From positions 186,001-250,000 of the forward strand of contig NW_005201102.1 of NCBI RefSeq assembly GCF_000372725.1: a stretch of DNA of 64,000 bases. Reading direction: 5' to 3'. The stretch is from Emiliania huxleyi CCMP1516. Lineage: Eukaryota. Shown one piece after another: positions 32,197 to 59,600 of this stretch (the first letter of the stretch is position 1; each line of letters opens with the position of its first letter). Made by a program: the position numbers and the translations under genes. A model generated the notes under the pieces. It was not told where the DNA came from. It made no database searches and worked only from the letters and a program-made list of their open reading frames with translations.

Positions 32197-33170
32197 TCCT
32201 GGGGGAAGCAACCTTCTATGTCTATCTCATGCTTCATGACACGACACGCGGTGTGGTGGGAGCTGGTGGAGCTGTCAGCTGATCGATCCAAGCGGGTGGG
32301 GAGTGGGGGGCATGGCTGGGCATGCAAGTCCGCCAGTCGGCCCGGCCTCTGACGTGGTGCTGCCGCTGCATTCCAGCATTCGCTGAAAAAGAGAGGTGCG
32401 ACTTGATTGGAGGCACTGGAGGCGAGGCGAAGGGAGGTTGGGCCGGGCCGTGAGGGGCTGATGGCGCTGGCCAGCGCGGGGTGTGAGATGTCGTCGTCGT
32501 CGTATACTGCTGGCCCTCGCCCTCAGTTGCCAGCGAGGGCTGTGGGCTGCAGAATTGGCGTCTGTGGCGTCTGCGCAGGCTCTGCAGCGTGATGGCTGGC
32601 GGGACTGCGAGGCTGGCGGCAGCGGAAGGAGAGCTGGGCACGAGCCAGGAACAGGCTGGCCAGGTCCGCAGGTAGCTGCGCTCGGGCGAGGCGCGCGCGC
32701 GCATGGCAGGCCGAGCAGGCTCGGCATATGGTGAACCCCCGATGTCGCGATAGCGGTGCCGCTTTTCCCGCGATCATTTCGTCCGTCCAATCGAAAAGGA
32801 AGCTGGATCGCCCATGTTATGAGCCCTCGGGACGAAGAGAGGGGAGGCGGCCCCCCTCACTGCCTGCGGGGCGGCTCCGCCGCATGCTAGAGATAACCAG
32901 ATAAGGCGTCCCGGTGTGAACGTGTTCCACCTCGGAGAGAGGAGCCGCCCTCCCTTCCTCCGGTCTCCGTGTCTGTCCCGCGCACATTGTCATGGAAGGT
33001 TGAGCGCGCACATTGTAGCGACGTCATACTTAGTCCTTTTTACTGTTTACGATTCCCGACATGGTACCTCCGCGTGAGATGATCATCGTGTGTATCTCTC
33101 TCCGTACACGGACTACAGTGTAGTGTTTTGACAAACTTCTCACCATGGCATACACATAATGTTACAGTAA

Positions 33171-35823
33171 TCACAACTTCGATGGCACCGCCGGCTGCCG
33201 CGACAGCTCGGCGAGGCACAGCTCGGCGATCTTCACGTCCTGGATCGCGACGCCCGTCGAGTCGAAGACCACGAGCTCGGGGCGACTGGGCTTCGAGCCG
33301 CGCCCCCACCCTCCCTCCGCGATGCACTCGCCGAGCTCCCTCGCCTCTTCCGGGTCGAAGCCCGCTGCGACGGCGTGCTGGAGCTCGCCCTTGTCGACGC
33401 ACTGCGCCCGCGAGTCGACGACGACCAGGTCGGCCTCGATCAGCGCGCCCGCCTCGAGCTCTTGCTTGCCGGCCGAGTCCGCGCCGATCGCGAGTACGAC
33501 CACTGGCCGGCGCAGCCACGCCGTCCGGACGATGGCCGACCTCGCTGGCGTGACGGTGAGGACGATGCCCGCACCGCGGCACGCAGCCTCCGCCGACGGC
33601 GCTACCTCGGCCGCCCACCCCGCCGGCCCGCCGTCGAGCTCCGCCGCCAAGGCGCGCGCCTGCTCGGGTCGCCGCGACCACAGACGAACGGCGCGGCAAG
33701 GCGTGACCGCGGCGAGCATCCCCAGCTGGTACCGCGCCTGCACGCCGCATCCGATGACGGCGATGTGGTGCGGCTCCGCCGGCGCGAAGAGCGACGCGGC
33801 GAGCGCCCCGGCGGCGGCGGTGCGGAGCTCGGTCAACAGGCCGCCGTCGAGCAGCACGGCGAGCGGCGCGAAGGTGCGCTGCGAGAAGACGAGCACGAGG
33901 CCCGAGTTGTTGCCGCCGCCGCCGCTCGCCACCTTGGCGACGAAGACCTCGCCCCCCTCCTCGTAGGCCGACTTGATGCACGCCTGCCCGTCGCCCTTGC
34001 TGTCGCCCGAGAACCGTCCCAGCGGGGGCTGGCCCAGCGTCTGGATCGGAGGCACCGACACGCGGCCCTGCGAGTAGCTAGTGAAACCCGCGGCCAGCGC
34101 GTCGAGGATTGCACGCGGCGCAACCCGCCCCATCGCCGCCGCAACCTCTCTCTCCGAGTAGACCCGAGGAGGCGGCGACACAGCCGCCGCCACCGCCGCC
34201 GCCGCCTCCGCCTCCACCGCCTCCCCCGCCGCCTCCGCCTCCACCGCCCGCTTGACCTCGCTCGCCCACGCCTCGAGCTTGAGCTGTCGGCTCGCCGCCT
34301 TCGGGTCGCGGAGCCGGCGGAACTTCTTCGGCTTGCGCTCGAGCGCCGCGACGCGCGGGTCGTTGCACACGGCTGCGGGTAGGCCGGCCGCCGCCACGGC
34401 CTCCTCAAACTTGGCGGGGTGCGCGGTCAGCACGCAGACGACCCGCCCGCCCTCGCACGCGGCGCGGACGGACTCGACGTGGTCGAGCGCGTGCACGCCT
34501 AGTCCCATACCTCCAGAGTACCGAATCCAGAGTGTAGGCTCAGTCCGGGGGGTGGTGCGGAGCGCGTGCACGCCGATGGCGGAGTGCGGGTCCAGCGCGT
34601 ACCCGTCGGCTGCCCAAACCTCGCGCATCGTCTGCAGCGTCTGCGCGTCGCTCACGGCGCAGGAGACGAAGGTGTCCTGGACGGCGTGCAGCAGCGGCGG
34701 AGGCAGCGCGACGGCTCGGTCCGCCTCGAGCGTCGCCATGAGTGCGGCGACCGCCGTCGCGTCTCCGCCCGAGCAGAAGTAGAGGAGCCGCTCGACGTTG
34801 TACGCGAACTGGATGTCCATCGCCGGAGAGACAGTCTGCTGGTTTGCGCGCATCGACATGTCGCCCCTCGAGATGGTCCGATGCACGACATCGTTGGAAT
34901 TCGTCGCGCAGACGATCCTGCCGACCGCGCCGCCGAGCCGCTTGGCGAGCAGCCCGCCCGCGGCGTTGCCAAAGGCGCCGGTCGGGACGACAAAGTGGAC
35001 GGGCCGGTCGGAAGCGGGCGAGACCTGTTGGCACGCCCACAGGTAGTAGCCCGCCTGCACGAGCACGCGCGCCCAGTTGATCGAGTTGATCGAGCAGACG
35101 GAGTGGCGCCGCATGAAGGCCGCGTCTTCGAAGACGCGCTTGAGCGCCTCGGCCTGCTCGTCGGTGTCGCCCTCCGTGCGGTAGACGAAGACGTTCGGGC
35201 TGTCCACGGTCACCATCTGCAGCTCCTGCACGCGCGACACGCGCCCCTCCGGATACAGGCAGAAGATGCGCACCTGATCTCGGGTGATCTCGGGTGATCT
35301 CGGGTGATCTAGGGTGGCACCGCGGGTACAGGCAGAAGGAGCGCACCGCCTCGCAGCCTCGCACCGCCTCGATGGCGGCGGGGCCCGTGTCTCCGGACGT
35401 CTCGACCACGATGGTGGCGCGCTCGCCGCGCCCGCCGAGCACGTGGTTGAGCAGCCGCGCCACGACCTGCTGCCCGATGTCCTTGAAGGCGAGCGTCGGC
35501 CCGGCGCCCGTCTCGAGGAGCAGCCGCCGGCCCGCCCGCACCAGAGGCAGAGCTGGCTCGAGCCCGTTGTTGAACGAGAGGAAGGCGGCCGCGCAGATCT
35601 CCTCGCAGTCGGCGAGCGCGATGCCGGTGAAGGGCTCGAGCACGCGTGCCGTCACCTGCGCAAGCGTCATGCCCGGGTGTAGCCCGGCGATGTGGTTTGG
35701 CATCGTCGACAGTTCGGGCACGAAGAGGCCGCCGTCCGGCGCATAGGCGGAGAGCAAGATGTCGGAGAAGTCGAGGCCGTGCACGCCTCCGCGCGTGGAC
35801 TGATAGCGGACCCGTGACGGCAT
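33171..35823 (-). CDS. Fusion of a threonine-synthase-like (THNSL2-type) PLP enzyme and an ornithine cyclodeaminase/mu-crystallin domain, with C-terminal PTS1 (SKL); introns 35274-35346 and probably 34499-34573
   Basis: TS motifs: RYQSTRG, APDGGLFVPE, GPTLAFKD (PLP Lys), TSGDTGPAA, NSINWARV, VPTGAFGN, SPAMDIQ...NVERLL, DPHSA, TAHPAKF. OCD motifs in the same frame: LTELRTAAAGALA, IGCGVQAR, AIGADSAGKQEL, FDSTGVAIQD. Ends PSKL-stop. Confidence 0.9.
34505..34560 (-). mobile_element. Introner-like element, family A, copy 3 (75-nt in-frame predicted intron 34499-34573)
   Basis: + strand CCATACCTCCAGAGTACCGAATCCAGAGTGTAGGCTCAGTCCGGGGGGTGGTGCGG, between two copies of gagcgcgtgcacgcc (GVHAL is duplicated in the ORF). 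Confidence 0.8.
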
Positions 35824-35949
35824 GGCGGCGGCGACGACGGAGGGGGAGGGCTTGGGGGCGGCACTCGGTGGCGCAAGCGCGACTTTTTTTGTGTGATTTG
35901 GGCTGCATAGTAAAATTCTTTTGCTGAGGCTAATATATTAAGAATTCTT

Positions 35950-36222: not shown

Positions 36223-37394
36223 TGTTTATCTGAGAGCTGGTCTGGGCCAAAATCTGAGGCGAAACCGAGGAAAACCGGCAAAATACCTGGGCCCAAACCA
36301 GCCTCAGACTCGGCTCAGAGCCCGTGAAATTGACGATTTTTGCGGAGTTTCATCGGGAAACTAGAGAGGAAACGAGAGGGTGCTGTAGAGAAACAAACAC
36401 GGAAAGGAAACACGAGACGGGGTGAGCGAGGAAACATGGGTTCAGCCTAAGACAAACAATCGAAAGTGGTTGGTTGGCAGCGCGCGAGACGAGCTCAGCT
36501 ATCGACGAATAGTGGGCGCACCCGTACGCGTACGTGCTATCCATGCCATCCGATGGGACGCGTTGAATTGCGCATAACCAGTCACGTGGAAGGAGAAGTG
36601 CGACGCAGCAAGGACGCACGTCGGCAAGGCGAGACTAACTTCAGCTCACGGGTGCTGGCAGTAACCATCAGGTCCGCACATGGGGCCCGCATTTGCGTCG
36701 AGTATTGGTGGGCGTCTTCCACCCCTCAACTGTGCCGTCAAGGGTGTCATCAATGTCTGCAGCCGCGATCTCTGTGCCAGCACTAGTATCAGGGATCATG
36801 GCCTCCAGCTTCACCTTCTCAACCTGGCTCGTTGGTTCCGCCCATAGGGTGTTAAGGCGCACGTGCTCCTGGTTCGTCAGTTGCGCACTCTCCGCCGCGC
36901 TCACAGCCGTGACTTGACAGCGAATCTTTGCGTTGCCACCAACGACCACTTCATCGTTCTCCCACGTGAACACGGGCACCGTGTTTGGAGGATCTGTCGT
37001 CCCCGCTCTCGAGCTGTTCAGATCCCTCGACGGGTCTCCCGAATCGGGCCGGCCCTTCGTACACCCCATACGACACTACTGGTCGCGGTACGAACCTATC
37101 CCCCACCCACTTGTTTGGCATGTCTCTCCCTCCATCCCCCATCCGTCGCAGCGAGGTGCGTGAAGGGCCGCGCTCTGTGCAGTGCGAGGCATATCCTGGC
37201 AACCTCCGCGTTGAGCTCACGGCCCTTCTCCGAGCCAAGCGGCTCTCTATCCTTGCCCATCATGACCTGCGTCCCGTTTCTGTCGGACAGCGCCCGTGTC
37301 CCGACCTCAAACTCGTCCCACCGCAGCAGGAAGCGCGTAAGCGGATCCTCCTGGAGTTTGGCGTCTCTTACCCACGCGCCGTGCCAGTTTCTAT

Positions 37395-37398
<4 letters not shown>

Positions 37399-37481
<83 letters not shown>
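37399..37481. repeat. (CA)n microsatellite
   Basis: Long cacaca run. Confidence 0.98.
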
Positions 37482-37485
<4 letters not shown>

Positions 37486-37734
37486 CAGACACCACCACCA
37501 GATACACACTACTATCGACGTACGTATGCTAGTCGACCGCGTACGCCCTACTCCTCTCCACTTGACACCCTATCCAGTGCTCAAGTGCTCAAAAGTACGT
37601 TTACTGAAATTCATCGCCAAAAGCCGAGCATCGAGGTTGAGCGGAGATTCCGGGAGATGGAATTGCCAACTTGGGTAATTCGGAGACCGACTGAAGCCTG
37701 GCGCCACGACCTGCAGAGCTGCTATCTCTGCCGA

Positions 37735-39491
37735 ATGCGCTCGTGGAGGGCGCTTCTGCTCTCGCTACCGCATTCGCTGGGCGACCATGAGCCGCACGGC
37801 AGGACCGGAAGCGGGAAGCGACGCCGTTTGGTCACGCTCTGCGACGACACCTGTACGTTCACGAATCGCAAAGGGACGCAGGAGAGGGCGTCTGAACTAC
37901 TGAACCCCGCCACACAGGATGGGACAGGAACGTGGGGCGAGTTTCTGGCGGCGGAGGGTATTCAGATAGAGCCCCTAATCTCCTATTCCTATGGACCGAA
38001 CCACGGAGAAGTTGCTCGCGAGAAACCTGCCCGACCTGTCAAGGATGGCTACTGCGACGACGGTGGTGCTGATGCCCTTTCTGCAAGCTGCGATTATGGC
38101 ACGGACTGTGCGGATTGTGGACCTCGCGAATCCACCGAGTGGGTCGACTTATCGCCCCCAACGCCGCCCCTTCCGCCAACGCCACCCTTGCCGCCGTACA
38201 GCAGAGCGCAGGTCTGGAACTCGAACTTGTTCAGCATGGACGACGTCTTGTGCGGATCAGGGGAAGGGCACATGAGTGCTAAAGATCAGCATGAGCCAGA
38301 CGCATTCCTGCGCGAGTTAGAGATTGAGGCCTTCATGACGCTGCTCCAATACCCCCAATGGAAAAGGGAGGAGGGAAAGCAGCGGGCATTCGGAGGTGCT
38401 TTCGAGGAAAGGGAGCCCGACATCCTAAGCTTTGAGAGTGAATGTGCAAGGTTCTGCATTGAATACGCGGAGGCGCACGGATACGCCCGTGATGCCCCCT
38501 TCTGCTGCGAGTCGAACAAGATGGGAAACAGCGGAAGCAACTGGGACCCGCTCCAGCTCGTTACTGACAAGGCACGGGCGAAGTTCGCCGGTAAGGTCGG
38601 TGCGCCAGGGCCCGCAACCAACCCAGACGATGTCGGCGACGTCTATCGTTACAGGTCAGGGGCCCCAGATACGCGAGGAAGATGCGTCATCGGCAAAGCG
38701 GGGAGCACGAAGCGAACCTCGAACGAAAAAGTAGGCCCGGGCCATGACAACCGAGCCGTCAAGAGCGTTATTCTCACCCTCGACGACGTGTACGCCGCCT
38801 TCCCATCGTACAATGCATATTGCACGAACGATTGCCTGCGCCTCAATCCCAACGCCAACACGGGCCCGACCGAGAACGCCTTAGACGGCAGCAGAGGCAA
38901 CGGCGTATGCGAAGACGGCGGCCCTGGGGACGAAACGAACTTCAAGGAGCGATACGGCTGGCCGCGCTGCCAATACGGGTCCGACTGCGCAGACTGCGGC
39001 CCGCGGCCCGGTCCCCCTTCCCCTCCCCGCAGCCTTGCCAGCAGCGACTCCCCGCCGCCACCGCTGCCACTGGCTACAGCTCCGCCACCGGCGTCTATGC
39101 CCTCAGCGTCTTCACCACCCGCGTTTGCGTCGCCGCCCAGAGCTGATGCTAAGGCGCGTTGCGACGCTGCCTCTCTTGCATGCGCAAAGGCAGAGGCGGA
39201 CACACTTGTCTCGGGTTTGAGTAGGTGCTCCAAGACCCCCACTTGTACTTTGCGTATGGCGGACGCGCTGACTTCCGCGGCCGCAATGGCGCCTTCTACA
39301 GCTTCCTTTCCGCGCCGGGTCTAGCGGTCAACGTCAAGATTGAGGAGGCGCTTTTCACGCTTCACGACGGCGCGCTCACGGTCAACGGCTCCTTCATCAC
39401 CGAGGCGCATGTGCTGGCGCGAGGCATCGAAGATCGCCAAGTCAGCGCCTCCTTCTTCTCCAAGGAGCTCGACGAGCTCAACTCGGGCTAG
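37735..39491 (+). CDS. Putative secreted Cys-rich protein with two CxDGG...CxYGxDCADCGPR repeats, Pro-rich linkers and a C-terminal 'QDPH...GGRADFRG' domain (possibly 3'-truncated)
   Basis: MRSWRALLLSLPHSLG start; CDDGGADALSASCDYGTDCADCGPR and CEDGGPGD...CQYGSDCADCGPR. Predicted GC-AG intron 39154-39224 joins to VLQDPHLYFAYGGRADFRG. Confidence 0.6.
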
Positions 39492-56635: not shown

Positions 56636-59600
56636 CTAGTCGGTCGCCTCCTCCTCGGCGAGGCGCGCGGCGAGGATGGCCTTGGCCGTCGCCTATTCTC
56701 CGCCAGCTGTCGGTTTCTGCGCGAGTTCTTCTTGTCGCGCCAGCTCTGGTCTTAAGCGTCGCCTCCATGCAGAGCGCCTCCTGCTCGTCCTTGACGCCGC
56801 ACCTAAAAAAGAAAAAACAGGTCCGAAAAGGAATACAGCGCCCCCTGCTCGTCCTTGACGCCGCACATCTTTGGGAGGAAGGAGTCGTCCTCGAACTGCG
56901 CGACGCCGAACGGCGCGAGCCTGCAGTGTGAATGCGCCAGCACTAACTAATTAATCAATTAAGTCGTTTGACGGGCGCGAGCCTGCAGTGTGAATGCGCC
57001 AACACCATCGGGGCGGGGCGACGGCAGGGCGCAGCGTCTCCAGAGCACCGCGAGAGTGAGAGCGATGCGAATACCGCGAGCACGGCTCGACTACTACGTG
57101 TCCTCTCGAGCGCGACGTGGCATGCAAGAAGACGTCTTCCGCTTCTCTAAGCGGCGCGAGCCCCGTTCGCGCGACGCGGCCGAGATATGGGGAGATATGG
57201 GGAGATATGGGGAGATATGGGGAGATATGGGGAGATATGGCGCGAGCCCCGTCCGCGCGACGCGGCCGACGAACTGCCGCAGCGTGTTAGCCGAGTGGTT
57301 GGCGATGAAGTCGCGGTCGACGAGCACCTGATGGAGAGTGAAATGAGTGAATGAACTAGCTCGTGTCGTTTGAGCGCGAGGACGGACGACATCGGAGGGG
57401 CGACCTGCTCGTACTCTCGGGTACTCTCGGGTACTCTCGGGTACTCTCGGGTACTCTCGGGTACTCTCGGGTATCCTCGGGTACTCTCGGAGGGGTGGCC
57501 TGCGCAGAAACAAGGGAGGCGACTCTGTCCTCCGACGCCTCTCCGAGGTGGTGGCCGACGCTACATCGACGAGCACCGACGTGCAGGGCACGTTGGCGCC
57601 GTACGTGAAGTCCTTGGTCACGCCGCAGACGGCGAGCGCGCCCTTCTCCATCTGGTCCGCGACGTAGTTTGTGTAGGCGATGTCGCCCTTTGGGTTGAGC
57701 GACGGCTCGAGCGGCATGTGCGCCGCCACGCCTACCGACAGGGGGCATGGCGACGCTCGGGGCTCCCTTCCTCTCGGCTCGAGCGGGCGTGTGCGCTTCC
57801 GCGCCCGAGAGGAGCAGCGAGCGCCACGTGTCGTCCACCGGCAGCGAGTCCACCTTTTTGAAGTCGCCGGTCGACGGCACCGACCGGTAGAAGGCGCCGT
57901 CGAACTGGTTGACCATTTGCGGCGCGAACTTCTTGAGGTGCGCCTTGGAGTGTTGTCGACGCGGGCATGAGTGAGAAAGAGTGCGTGGCTGCTTCTGAGG
58001 TGCGCGCCTTGGAGTTGGTCGACGCGGGCAGGAGTGAGAAAGAGTGAGTGCGTGGCAGCTTCTTGAGGTGGCAGCGCCTTGGAGTTGACAACGCAGTCCT
58101 CGGGGATCTTGAGCAGACCCGACGACTCGGAGAGGCCTACAGACACGGACGTCTCGACGCTGCAGGAGCGAGACCCTGTGCGGGCAGCGGCGGGAGAGGG
58201 GGGGGGTGCGAGGACCCATGTCGCGCAGCTTCGCGGCGATGATCTCCTCGACGCGGTCCTCGCCCCCCTTGACCTGCGAGAAAAAGAATTCTTTTGGCGA
58301 GGGAGAGTCTCGACGTCCCACCTCGGTTTCTGTGCTCAGAGTGTCGTGACCTTCTCCGCCTCCTTGCGGATGTTGCTCATCACCTGATTCAGTCATGCAA
58401 TCAATAGACTCCATTCAATACACGTCCTTCATTCGCAGCTTGCGGGCATGTGGGACATCACCTTCTCCGCGGCGGCCTCCTCCGCTTCGAGGTCCTTGTT
58501 CAGCTTCTTGAGCGACGGCATCTCGGCGATCAGCGCCTAGAAGACAGAACCCCGCCCACCAATCTTTCTTTTTTCTTCGTGGGCGGCGGCATCGCGGCGA
58601 CCCGCGCCCCGGACTGCACCATGATCTGCTTGTGCGGCTGCGCGGACACGGTGAGCGTCATGCCGGGGAAGTGGTGCGCGTTGCCCAGCAGCAGCTGCTC
58701 GGTCGAGTACGGCGGGAAGATCGCCTTCTGCATGTTCGTCGACGGCGTGCAGAAGGCCTTGATCAGCGCCGCGTCGCCGCACTCGCACAGCGTCTGGAGC
58801 ATGTAGCTCGCATAGTGGCGCAGCGTCGAGTGCGACAGCTTGGACAGGTCCGAAAAGTGGTCGTCCACCGCCGTCACCGTGAAGCCCGCCCGCTGAGCGT
58901 GCGCCGCGACGTCCTCCTCCTCGAGCCGGTCCTACAAGAACAAGAGACGGCGCGCGCTGCCTTGCAGGCGCGGCGTGTGGCGCCCGCGCGGCTCGTGAGA
59001 TCCGCTCGCGCCTGCATCGAGACGATCGCCTGCGCGGTGTACGCCTTGAGCAGCAGCGGCTCGACCTGGAGGCGAGGTCACCCGAGATCGCCCGAGATGG
59101 CCCGAGATGGCCCGAGATGACCTTGAGCAGCAGCGGCTCCACCTTGAGCCGCCCCACGAAGTCGGCGAGCGCTTGCGCCGGCTCCTCGGCCTCGGCGACC
59201 ATCGAGTGCGGCAGCGCGACTTGCCCATTCGCCTTGACGAGCAGGACGCCGACGTTGAGCTGCATCGACACGAGCTCGGCGACGCCGTCAGCGTCCTCGA
59301 CGATGTTGAACCGCTCCTTGACGCAGTAGCAGCAGCAGTGAGAATGATTATCACTCCCGGTGATGATTATCATCACTACTGGTAGTGATGATGTTGATCC
59401 GCCCCTTAGTAGCAGCGGCAAGAGGACGGATCATAGTGCTGCTGGTAATAACGATACTGATGATCTCGATCCGCTCCTTGAAGTATCCAATCGGCGTCTG
59501 CAGGTACGCGGCCGCCGGCAGCGTCGCCGACATCCAAACTGTCTTATACGGCGCCTGTGGACATGTCTCGGACATGTCCCGGACGTGTCCCGGTCGCCGC

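What the first reader, a model, noticed from the sequence alone, without database searches (positions are those of the whole stretch)
33171..35823. Peroxisome-targeted fusion of a threonine-synthase-like PLP lyase with an OCD/mu-crystallin domain
Seen: one reading frame contains a complete fold-type II threonine-synthase-like domain, an Ala/Glu linker, a complete OCD/mu-crystallin domain and terminal SKL. The phosphate-binding loop is PTGAFGN rather than the usual xGNFG(N/D), closer to my recollection of animal THNSL2, a catabolic phospho-lyase. Known: fold-II PLP enzymes pair with OCD-family enzymes as separate genes in bacteria (SbnA/SbnB diaminopropionate synthesis; EutB/EutC hydroxyectoine catabolism), and mu-crystallin is an imine reductase. 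Inference: a two-step eliminase/imine-reductase channel in the peroxisome acting on an O-phospho- or hydroxy-amino acid. I do not know of this fusion being described.
Basis: partly seen in the sequence, partly recalled or inferred. Interest (0 to 1): 0.8.

Follow-up and report, generated by a model that had tools for sequence, protein, structure and literature searches.

The report
Peroxisome-tagged THNSL2-like/cyclodeaminase-family fusion enzyme
An Emiliania huxleyi gene joins a threonine-synthase-like PLP domain of the animal THNSL2 type to an EutC-like ornithine-cyclodeaminase-family domain and ends in the peroxisomal tag SKL; the same pairing arose at least three separate times in protists, so the two enzymes likely work together in one still-unknown, predicted peroxisomal amino-acid pathway.

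Summary
The fusion is real. On the minus strand, 35823..33171 is a three-exon Emiliania huxleyi gene. It has a 73-nt GT..AG intron and a 75-nt in-frame GC..AG intron that is often retained. It is not a single reading frame. The product is 834 aa, or 859 aa with intron 2 retained. It reads Thr_synth_N/PALP/THR4_C, an Ala/Glu linker, a complete OCD/mu-crystallin domain, then SKL. Contigs of public runs skip intron 1 exactly and bridge the linker.

The PLP half groups with animal THNSL2 and a protist clade, not with the sampled bacterial ThrC, and lacks the ThrC loop Asn (GAFGN). The OCD half sits among free-standing protist OCD-like proteins and most resembles bacterial EutC-type proteins.

Unfused orthologues of both halves mostly carry their own PTS1: 27 of 49 for the PLP half and 13 of 26 for the OCD half. 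Fusions of this kind occur in three lineages that are separate in both trees; AU tests reject a single clade.

This points to a conserved, undescribed two-enzyme peroxisomal module. The chemistry is untested. My leading reading is phosphate elimination followed by imine reduction.

The gene is already in public databases, mis-modelled and unstudied. I rate it a new variant of a known kind, interest 0.6.

The parts
35347..35823 (-). Exon 1 (159 codons from the ATG at 35823). It holds Thr_synth_N, the PLP-lysine motif TLAFKD (35496..35479; Lys codon 35484..35482) and TSGDTG (35400..35383). There is no N-terminal extension relative to the unfused homologues.
   Evidence: The N-terminus MPSRVRYQSTRGG aligns with the start of unfused P0003.
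35274..35346 (-). Intron 1, 73 nt, GT..AG. It shifts the reading frame. Its first 24 nt repeat the first 24 nt of exon 2 with 2 mismatches. It also holds three full tandem copies of AGATCACCCG followed by a partial copy.
   Evidence: A 'skips 73' joint appears in contigs of X1 and X13. The same junction is in the public model P0002. The repeat is confirmed.
34574..35273 (-). Exon 2: the rest of the PALP core, including the PLP-phosphate loop PTGAFGN (34985..34965).
34499..34573 (-). Intron 2, 75 nt, in frame, with no stop codon. It reads GC..AG in this register. It is flanked by the 15-nt direct repeat GGCGTGCACGCGCTC. If retained it encodes RTTPRTEPTLWIRYSGGMGLGVHAL.
   Evidence: Sequence. 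The insert is absent from at least 95% of the other 89 aligned homologues. 15-letter loose ends in X1, X3, X13 and X14 continue on the far side of the 75 nt, and unspliced 89-nt contigs are also present in all four runs. GC-AG donors made up 56% of 241 mapped E. huxleyi junctions, and intron retention is frequent (PMC4028052, passages read).
34248..34498 (-). Start of exon 3: the C-terminal part of the threonine-synthase-like domain (THR4_C).
   Evidence: THR4_C at residues 259-344 of the 700-aa ORF.
34176..34247 (-). Ala/Glu linker (AVEAEAAGEAVEAEAAAAVAAAVS). It takes the place of the C-terminal tail and PTS1 seen in unfused TS-like homologues.
   Evidence: X9 contig record 23 bridges 33146..34499 across it.
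33183..34175 (-). Complete OCD/mu-crystallin domain. Motifs: IKSAY Lys (33977..33963), TELRTAAA Arg (33833..33810), Rossmann IGCGVQA (33755..33735), GADSAGKQEL (33485..33456) and FDSTGVAIQD (33266..33237).
   Evidence: (K70, R120, G144, G146, A149, D235, K239 and E241 are invariant in 34 rows).
33171..33182 (-). C-terminal Ser-Lys-Leu (a PTS1-type tripeptide) followed by the TGA stop.
   Evidence: PTS1-like ends in orthologues.

Best explanation
This is a three-exon Emiliania huxleyi gene, found in spliced form in public assemblies, whose 834-residue product fuses a THNSL2-type threonine-synthase-like PLP domain to an EutC-like OCD/mu-crystallin NAD(P) domain and ends in SKL. It is predicted to be imported into peroxisomes, where the PLP half would likely eliminate phosphate from an O-phospho-amino acid and the OCD half would likely reduce the released imine or enamine with NAD(P)H.

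Shown here:
- the gene structure, the domain architecture, and intact catalytic motifs in both halves;
- placement of the PLP half with THNSL2 and of the OCD half among free-standing protist OCD-like proteins;
- PTS1-like ends on the unfused orthologues of both halves;
- at least three separate fusions of the same two kinds of enzyme.

Inferred:
- peroxisomal import;
- that the two halves catalyse consecutive steps;
- that step 1 is a THNSL2-like phospho-lyase reaction on an O-phosphohomoserine- or O-phosphothreonine-type substrate;
- that step 2 is an EutC-like or ketimine-reductase-like reduction. The net reaction would be reductive removal of a phosphorylated hydroxyl group, for example O-phosphohomoserine to 2-aminobutyrate.
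For: Architecture and motifs.

Transcript-like contigs:
- Intron 1 is skipped in X1 and X13.
- X9 record 23 bridges the domain junction.
- Cover is zero below 33114 in 3 of 4 runs.
- Intron 2 is skipped in 4 of 4 runs.

PLP half:
- 77 of the 79 positions conserved alike in bacterial ThrC and the protist clade are kept, including the PLP Lys.
- Eight positions are conserved in each group but differ between them. At 6 of these 8 the two THNSL2-type rows lack the bacterial residue, including the loop Asn.
- THNSL2 plus the protist clade has 99% SH-aLRT support.
- The murine THNSL2 homologue is reported as a phospho-lyase (PMC2748086, table footnote read; Donini 2006 seen only as a citation).

OCD half:
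- It lies inside a 26-row protist clade with 99-100% support.
- Its best NCBIfam models are PRK06823, PRK08291 and EutC.
- Its best annotated plasmid matches are eutC genes lying beside eutB, a fold-II PLP dehydratase.

Coupling:
- Six fused proteins fall into three lineages that are separate in both trees.
- AU tests reject a single clade: TS halves dlnL 244, p 7.7e-06; OCD halves dlnL 145, p 4e-04.
- All fused PLP halves are of the non-Asn type.
- All three lineages draw their OCD half from the same PRK06823/PRK08291/EutC-like sector.

Peroxisome:
- PTS1-like ends occur on 27 of 49 protist TS-like rows and 0 of 39 bacterial rows.
- 13 of 26 rows of the OCD clade carry a strict PTS1, and 9 more have near variants.
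- The fused proteins P0319 and P0330 end in SRL.
Against: - No enzymology exists for this protein or any protist member. The substrate is unknown, and no source of phospho-amino acids inside peroxisomes is known to me.
- OCD-family enzymes also act as cyclodeaminases, amino-acid dehydrogenases and opine-type oxidases. All NCBIfam matches of the OCD half fall far below their cut-offs, so sequence does not fix the reaction class.
- Imines released by PLP eliminases hydrolyse on their own (general knowledge), and the value of making 2-aminobutyrate is unclear.
- The role of EutB/EutC is itself only predicted. Deleting them did not impair growth of Halomonas on ectoine (PMC3187862, passages read).
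- Three of the six fused proteins (P0004, P0005, P0007) have no PTS1.
- The trees are quick LG+G4 searches with SH-aLRT support only. They contain no row known to be a fungal Thr4, plant TS or THNSL1, and only one of the two animal-type rows carries a name.
- The fused group was defined after the first trees had been seen.
- The runs laid are only guessed to be RNA.
- The PLP half passes the thrC equivalog cut-off (206.1 vs 167.1 bits).
Confidence: 0.4

Rival explanations
1. SbnA/SbnB-like logic. The PLP half would replace the phosphate of O-phosphohomoserine or O-phosphoserine with the amino group of a second amino acid, giving a secondary-amine (opine-like) intermediate. The OCD half would oxidise this with NAD+ to release a diamino acid (2,4-diaminobutyrate or 2,3-diaminopropionate) and a 2-oxo acid.
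For: Fold-II PLP plus OCD-family pairing is the SbnA/SbnB scheme. The nearest Atlas clusters by features are bacterial PALP+OCD fusions, one auto-named SbnA, but the score of 0.77 makes this only a lead. Recurrent fusion fits any obligatory two-step pair.
Against: The SbnB model is among the weakest matches of the OCD half (72.1 bits against a cut-off of 326.9). The PLP half is a threonine-synthase-type protein, not a CysK/SbnA-type one. Its only characterised close relative is reported as a lyase, not a replacement enzyme.
Confidence: 0.2
2. Two independent activities that merely share a compartment. The PLP half would be a stand-alone phospho-lyase or detoxifier. The OCD half would be a cyclodeaminase or ketimine reductase, for example lysine or ornithine to pipecolate or proline. 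Fusion would serve only co-expression and co-import through a single PTS1.
For: Both halves exist widely as separate PTS1-bearing proteins. The PDB matches of the OCD half include lysine cyclodeaminase and Pyr2C/ketimine reductases.
Against: Three separate fusions of the same two enzyme types are hard to explain without a functional link. Among the best 150 of the exhaustive search, no fusion of an OCD domain to an Asn-type ThrC was seen.
Confidence: 0.2
3. An ordinary threonine synthase fused to an ordinary ornithine cyclodeaminase, making threonine and proline.
For: The complete PLP half scores 206.1 bits on TIGR00260 thrC, above its 167.1 cut-off. UniRef names the two alleles 'Threonine synthase' and 'Ornithine cyclodeaminase'.
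Against: Haliotis 'threonine synthase-like 2' also passes that cut-off (188.4 bits), whereas a bacterial ThrC scores 303.9, so the model does not discriminate. The loop Asn is absent, and seven other positions conserved in ThrC are changed. The OCD-proper model PRK07589 scores 95.1 bits against a cut-off of 350. A PTS1 and the lack of any presequence would be an odd address for threonine synthesis in an alga (inference). I could not check whether the genome has a second, canonical TS.
Confidence: 0.1
4. A gene-model or assembly artefact: two neighbouring genes read through, or a pseudogene.
For: Both public models of this gene are wrong in places. The run type is not on record.
Against: The frame is open across the junction. 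A contig bridges 33146..34499. Five further proteins from other organisms have the same architecture. The catalytic motifs of both halves are intact.
Confidence: 0.03

Closest known systems
Animal THNSL2 (threonine synthase-like 2; the murine enzyme is reported as a phospho-lyase)
   Same: Same Thr_synth_N/PALP/THR4_C build. Groups with the protist clade at 99% SH-aLRT. Lacks the ThrC loop Asn (PTGGCGN/PTGACGN against PTGAFGN). Shares Tyr27, Phe81, Arg191 and Tyr317.
   Different: The two animal rows have no PTS1 and no OCD domain. Identity is only about 38%. The activity of the protist proteins is untested.
Bacterial EutB/EutC (predicted hydroxyectoine-utilisation dehydratase plus OCD-like protein)
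   Same: A fold-II PLP eliminase paired with an OCD-family protein. EutC is among the three best NCBIfam models. eutC genes beside eutB are the best annotated plasmid matches, at 37-40% identity.
   Different: These are separate genes. EutB is threonine-dehydratase-like, not threonine-synthase-like, and would remove water rather than phosphate. The EutC cut-off is not met (187.5 vs 471.65 bits). The roles of EutB and EutC are themselves only predicted.
SbnA/SbnB (staphyloferrin B 2,3-diaminopropionate synthesis) and bacterial SbnA-SbnB-type PALP+OCD fusions
   Same: A fold-II PLP enzyme that uses an O-phospho-amino acid, plus an OCD-family NAD enzyme. Fused PALP+OCD forms exist in bacteria (Atlas clusters, score 0.77, a lead only).
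   Different: SbnA is CysK-like, not threonine-synthase-like. The SbnB model scores only 72.1 bits against a cut-off of 326.9. These systems are bacterial and not peroxisomal.
Bacterial ThrC and yeast Thr4 (class II threonine synthase; PDB 4f4f, 1kl7, 3v7n, 1vb3)
   Same: These are the best solved-structure matches of the PLP half (E 1.9e-51 to 5.7e-26). The same three Pfam domains are present, and 77 of 79 shared conserved positions are kept.
   Different: The protein falls in a different clade. Eight positions conserved in each group are changed, including loop Asn to Ala. It also carries an OCD domain and a PTS1.
Archaeal alanine dehydrogenase (1omo), iminosuccinate reductase BhcD (6rqa), lysine cyclodeaminase (5yu0), Pyr2C reductase (6t3e) and mu-crystallin (4bv8, 2i99)
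   Same: These are the solved relatives of the OCD half (E 3.4e-30 to 3.1e-18). The Rossmann motif and the Lys/Arg/Asp motifs are shared.
   Different: None is close; every NCBIfam equivalog cut-off is missed by a wide margin. The protist clade has its own PIQTLGQPPL...AQACIKSAY block.

Membership tests
Threonine-synthase fold (Thr_synth_N + PALP + THR4_C) | All three Pfam domains present in order | tested here: met
   Thr_synth_N 44.7 bits (cut-off 25) and PALP 45 bits (cut-off 35). THR4_C scores 24.5 bits, just under its 27-bit cut-off. The precomputed Pfam list for P0002 names all three.
Threonine-synthase fold (Thr_synth_N + PALP + THR4_C) | PLP-binding lysine in the (T/S)xxFKD motif and the TSGDTG loop | tested here: met
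   TLAFKD at 35496..35479 and TSGDTG at 35400..35383. K114 and S143-G147 are conserved in both clades.
Authentic threonine synthase (ThrC, TIGR00260 equivalog) | Score above the curated cut-off of 167.1 bits | tested here: inconclusive
   The full PLP half (P0002) scores 206.1 bits. However, Haliotis THNSL2 also passes at 188.4 bits, while a bacterial ThrC scores 303.9. The cut-off does not separate TS from THNSL2-type proteins.
Authentic threonine synthase (ThrC, TIGR00260 equivalog) | Loop P-[ST]-G-N-x-G-[DNH], with Asn, as in 39 of 39 sampled bacterial rows | tested here: not met
   The protein has PTGAFGN, with Ala259 in place of Asn. Seven other positions conserved in the bacterial rows also differ.
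Authentic threonine synthase (ThrC, TIGR00260 equivalog) | Forms threonine from O-phosphohomoserine | not testable with these tools
   Needs an enzyme assay or thrC/thr4 complementation.
THNSL2-type proteins | Groups with named THNSL2 to the exclusion of ThrC | tested here: met
   A 51-row clade at 99% SH-aLRT in the 90-row tree. In the 93-row tree the non-Asn side holds 53 rows at 99%. Caveats: quick LG+G4 trees; no row known to be fungal Thr4, plant TS or THNSL1; only one named THNSL2 row.
THNSL2-type proteins | Phospho-lyase activity (O-phosphohomoserine to 2-oxobutyrate, phosphate and ammonia) | not testable with these tools
   The activity is known to me only for the mouse enzyme: a footnote in PMC2748086, and details recalled from Donini 2006, which I did not read.
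OCD/mu-crystallin family (PF02423) | Pfam match above cut-off, with the Rossmann GxGxxA and the conserved Lys, Arg and Asp motifs | tested here: met
   139.4 bits against a cut-off of 24. IGCGVQA, IKSAY, TELRTAAA and GADSAGKQEL are present. K70, R120, D235, K239 and E241 are invariant in 34 rows.
EutC (TIGR02992 equivalog) | Score above 471.65 bits | tested here: not met
   187.5 bits. The protein is EutC-like, not an EutC.
Ornithine cyclodeaminase proper (PRK07589) | Score above 350 bits | tested here: not met
   95.1 bits.
SbnB (TIGR03944) | Score above 326.9 bits | tested here: not met
   72.1 bits.
PTS1 peroxisomal matrix proteins | C-terminal [SAC]-[KRH]-[LM] tripeptide (consensus recalled) | tested here: met
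   The protein ends ...PAVPSKL. The same class of ending occurs on 27 of 49 protist TS-like rows, 0 of 39 bacterial rows, and 13 of 26 rows of the OCD clade.
PTS1 peroxisomal matrix proteins | Import into peroxisomes | not testable with these tools
   Needs a reporter-PTS1 localisation experiment or organelle proteomics.

The most novel reading that the evidence does not exclude
Eukaryotes possess an unrecognised peroxisomal two-enzyme pathway: a THNSL2-type PLP enzyme plus an EutC-like OCD-family dehydrogenase. It converts an O-phospho-amino acid into a non-protein amino acid, for example 2,4-diaminobutyrate by SbnA/SbnB-like logic or 2-aminobutyrate by elimination and reduction. The protist fusions would then act as a Rosetta stone that also reveals the long-orphan physiological role of animal THNSL2.
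Probability: 0.15. Interest if true: 0.85.

Novelty: new variant of a known kind. Interest (0 to 1): 0.6.

Why it matters
THNSL2-type proteins are widespread in eukaryotes, including animals, yet have no established physiological role. Protist peroxisome metabolism is also poorly mapped.

Three results here make a concrete, testable prediction that the two enzymes catalyse consecutive steps in peroxisomes:
- this PLP enzyme has fused at least three separate times to the same sector of the OCD family;
- the unfused versions of both partners carry their own peroxisomal tags;
- the catalytic motifs of both halves are intact.

A single recombinant protein assayed with a handful of phospho-amino acids and NAD(P)(H) could name the pathway. 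That would add a third type of fold-II PLP / OCD module beside SbnA/SbnB and EutB/EutC.

The case also shows that both public gene models of this locus are wrong: they retain an in-frame GC-AG intron and remove a real coding segment.

Tried and rejected
- Whole-genome search for a second, canonical threonine synthase: no genome is held for this window, so this stays open.
- Sequencing runs: no RNA holder is listed on record. All 14 holders are 'RNA? (a guess)'. I treat the spliced contigs as transcript-like by inference only.
- Complex prediction (PLP half against OCD half): the first attempt was not queued because the queue was full. The second was counted but not folded under a rule of the tool. 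There is no result either way, and I did not pursue the question with another tool.
- Trees under the mixture model (LG+C20 PMSF) did not finish in two 300-s calls. All trees reported are LG+G4 quick searches.
- A second AU test, holding only E. huxleyi with the P0004/5/7 trio, did not finish.
- A scan of GTDB prokaryote genomes with fused protein P0005 found no relative. This finds close relatives only, so it does not exclude bacterial fusions.
- The one metagenome locus (L001) shows only a eukaryote-type TRP-channel neighbour and large ORFs without a Pfam match. The organism behind P0004/5/7 was not identified.
- Protein Atlas: the best score was 0.77, below the level at which a hit counts as more than a lead.
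- Earlier findings of this scan: nothing.
- Literature: six full-text searches bearing on the fusion or its parts found no paper on it. The terms were 'threonine synthase'+'ornithine cyclodeaminase'+'fusion', THNSL2/'phospho-lyase', 'threonine synthase'+'peroxisomal'+'PTS1', 'ornithine cyclodeaminase'+'peroxisom'+'Emiliania', 'threonine synthase-like'+'phosphohomoserine' (0 papers) and THNSL1/THNSL2 names.
- Murakawa 2011 on threonine-synthase reaction specificity is not held. Any role of the loop Asn in reaction specificity is therefore recalled, not checked, and I do not rely on it.
- Considered and dropped: a link to DMSP or sulfonium chemistry, suggested by one TS-like protein fused to a DMSP_lyase-like cupin (P0040), and a cysteate-synthase-like role. 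No evidence bears on either.
Full report
WHAT IS THERE

The window is GC-rich eukaryotic DNA. The region matches Emiliania huxleyi CCMP1516 proteins XP_005774208 (EMIHUDRAFT_450832, 796 aa) and XP_005786905 (EMIHUDRAFT_455597, 922 aa).

The gene lies on the minus strand and starts at the ATG at 35823. Exon 1 (35823..35347, 159 codons) carries Thr_synth_N and the PLP-lysine motif TLAFKD. A 73-nt GT..AG intron (35346..35274) shifts the frame into the long ORF 35273..33171. That ORF carries PALP, THR4_C, an Ala/Glu linker, a complete OCD_Mu_crystall domain (E 1.7e-40) and a terminal SKL before TGA.

A SECOND, IN-FRAME INTRON

Residues RTTPRTEPTLWIRYSGGMGLGVHAL form an insert that is a gap in at least 95% of the other 89 aligned homologues. 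The 75 nt encoding them are flanked by a perfect 15-nt direct repeat. In the register 34573..34499 they read GC..AG.

In 4 of 4 runs laid there, 15-letter loose ends continue exactly on the far side of the 75 nt. This is my reading against the sequence. Unspliced 89-nt contigs are present in the same four runs.

GC-AG donors made up 56% of 241 mapped junctions in E. huxleyi, intron retention is common, and JGI junctions are often mispredicted (PMC4028052, passages read). The mature protein is therefore most likely 834 aa, or 859 aa with intron 2 retained.

IS IT ONE MESSAGE?

- Contigs of X1 and X13 (two studies) skip exactly the 73 nt of intron 1. In X5 and X9 the contigs break at the intron's repeat instead.
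- X9 record 23 runs from 33146 to 34499, through the OCD domain, the linker and THR4_C. It has 75 letters where the window has a 78-nt repetitive stretch.
- Cover is zero below 33114 in 3 of 4 runs and ends at 35851-35889 at the 5' side. This looks like transcript ends.
- The runs are not on record as RNA, so expression is inferred rather than shown.
- Both public models cut out 189 nt (34256..34068). That segment aligns with the N-terminus of free-standing OCD proteins and is bridged by the X9 contig. The modelled 'intron' is therefore an error.

THE PLP HALF

Its best solved relatives are bacterial and yeast threonine synthases.

For the first tree I kept 90 of the 190 proteins then held. 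I dropped everything under 440 aa, cluster members P0060-P0114, P0001 and P0059. The 90 rows split as follows:
- 39 bacterial-type rows whose loop is P-[ST]-G-N-x-G-[DNH];
- a 51-row clade (99% SH-aLRT) made of two animal-type rows plus 49 protist rows. One animal-type row is named 'threonine synthase-like 2' from Haliotis (loop PTGGCGN); the other is unnamed (PTGACGN). The protist rows have loop P-[ST]-G-A-x-G-N, mostly GAFGN.

Named protist members are Chrysochromulina parva, Epipyxis, Chromulina and the choanoflagellate Didymoeca.

E. huxleyi keeps 77 of the 79 positions conserved alike in both groups, including the PLP Lys. It shows the protist state at all 8 positions that are conserved in each group but differ between them. 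At 6 of these 8, the two THNSL2-type rows also lack the bacterial residue.

The thrC equivalog cut-off is passed by E. huxleyi (206.1 bits) and by Haliotis THNSL2 (188.4 bits), so it cannot tell the types apart. The murine THNSL2 homologue is reported to be a phospho-lyase (PMC2748086 footnote).

THE OCD HALF

It has the Rossmann GxGxxA and the conserved Lys, Arg and Asp/Lys/Glu motifs. Its best NCBIfam models are PRK06823, PRK08291 and EutC, all far below cut-off. Its best annotated plasmid matches are eutC genes next to eutB.

Free-standing protist proteins are 51-62% identical to it, Noctiluca among them. E. huxleyi sits inside a 26-row clade of these, with 99-100% support.

PEROXISOME

- 27 of 49 protist TS-like rows end in [SAC][KRH][LM]; 0 of 39 bacterial rows and 0 of 2 animal rows do.
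- In the 26-row OCD clade, 13 rows have a strict PTS1, 9 have near variants (GKL, PRL, GRL, HRL, SML, SAL x3, SSM) and 4 have none.
- In E. huxleyi the tail and PTS1 of the TS-like half have been replaced by the linker, and the OCD half supplies the SKL.
- There is no N-terminal extension.

Import itself is predicted, not shown.

RECURRENCE

The word-based search found fused proteins P0004, P0005 and P0007, which have no PTS1. The locus of P0005 looks eukaryotic.

The exhaustive search of 1.84 billion representatives listed 150 best hits. Among them the fused representatives are P0001, P0004, P0319 and P0330. P0319 and P0330 end in SRL.

In the 93-row TS tree and the 102-row OCD tree the three lineages stand apart, each beside unfused relatives. 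AU tests reject one clade of the six fused rows: TS dlnL 244.3, p 7.7e-06; OCD dlnL 144.6, p 4.0e-04.

All fused PLP halves are of the non-Asn type. All fused OCD halves hit the same three NCBIfam models best. This is the strongest evidence that the two activities are functionally linked.

MECHANISM

I commit, at about 0.4, to the following. The protein is imported into peroxisomes. The PLP half eliminates phosphate from an O-phospho-amino acid of the O-phosphohomoserine or O-phosphothreonine type. The EutC-like half reduces the released imine or enamine with NAD(P)H.

Rivals:
- SbnA/SbnB-like replacement followed by oxidative cleavage to a diamino acid (0.2);
- two independent activities sharing one import signal (0.2);
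- ordinary TS plus ordinary OCD (0.1);
- an artefact (0.03).

None of the chemistry is tested, and the EutB/EutC roles are themselves only predictions.

NOVELTY

The parts belong to known families, and the fold-II PLP / OCD pairing is known from SbnA/SbnB and EutB/EutC. Three things are new:
- the threonine-synthase-type partner;
- the eukaryotic, PTS1-marked setting;
- the repeated fusion.

The protein is in public databases but mis-modelled. Six full-text searches found no description of it.

Noticed in passing
window 35274-35346 and 34485-34574 (minus strand): Both introns carry boundary duplications. The first 24 nt of intron 1 repeat the first 24 nt of exon 2 with 2 mismatches. Intron 2 is flanked by a perfect 15-nt direct repeat with a 75-nt period. 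This looks like intron birth by tandem duplication or by insertion with target duplication. Intron 1 also holds three full copies plus a partial copy of AGATCACCCG. Contig depth in bin 35254-35360 is 4,770 to 36,665, against about 50-130 alongside, so that repeat is abundant elsewhere in those runs.
   Followed up: partly
window 34068-34256 (minus strand): Both public E. huxleyi models (P0002 = XP_005774208, P0060 = XP_005786905) splice out this 189-nt coding segment, which holds the linker and the OCD N-terminus. Both also retain the 75-nt in-frame intron.
   Followed up: yes
window 36668-37069 (minus strand): Part of this ORF (residues DSGDPSRDLNSS...QEH) is used as the N-terminal part of the 922-aa public model P0060. 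The transcript-like contigs of the fusion gene end at 35851-35889, so it is probably a separate upstream gene or a model error.
   Followed up: no
proteins P0040, P0024, P0350, P0400, P0421, P0426, P0411 (other organisms): Threonine-synthase-type domains occur fused to other partners:
- P0040: a DMSP_lyase-like cupin, ending SKL, non-Asn type.
- P0024: an N-terminal desulfoferrodoxin domain, ending ARL.
- P0350: a methyltransferase, Asn type.
- P0400: a HAD phosphatase.
- P0421: an APH-type kinase.
- P0426: a GHMP kinase.
- P0411: SURF1.

   Followed up: partly
window about 37400-37480 (plus strand): A long (CA)n microsatellite reads as a His-Thr repeat inside the mechanical ORFs 36863..37678 and 36985..39324.
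   Followed up: no
window 59075-59094 (plus strand): A second, imperfect copy (2 mismatches) of the AGATCACCCG dimer found in intron 1.
   Followed up: no
L001 1-18433: This is the metagenome contig that carries fused protein P0005. It has about 43-53% GC. Uninterrupted ORFs of 1771 and 1302 aa have no Pfam match, and one neighbour is a TRP-channel-like (PF06011) protein. It looks like an intron-poor eukaryote of unknown identity.
   Followed up: partly
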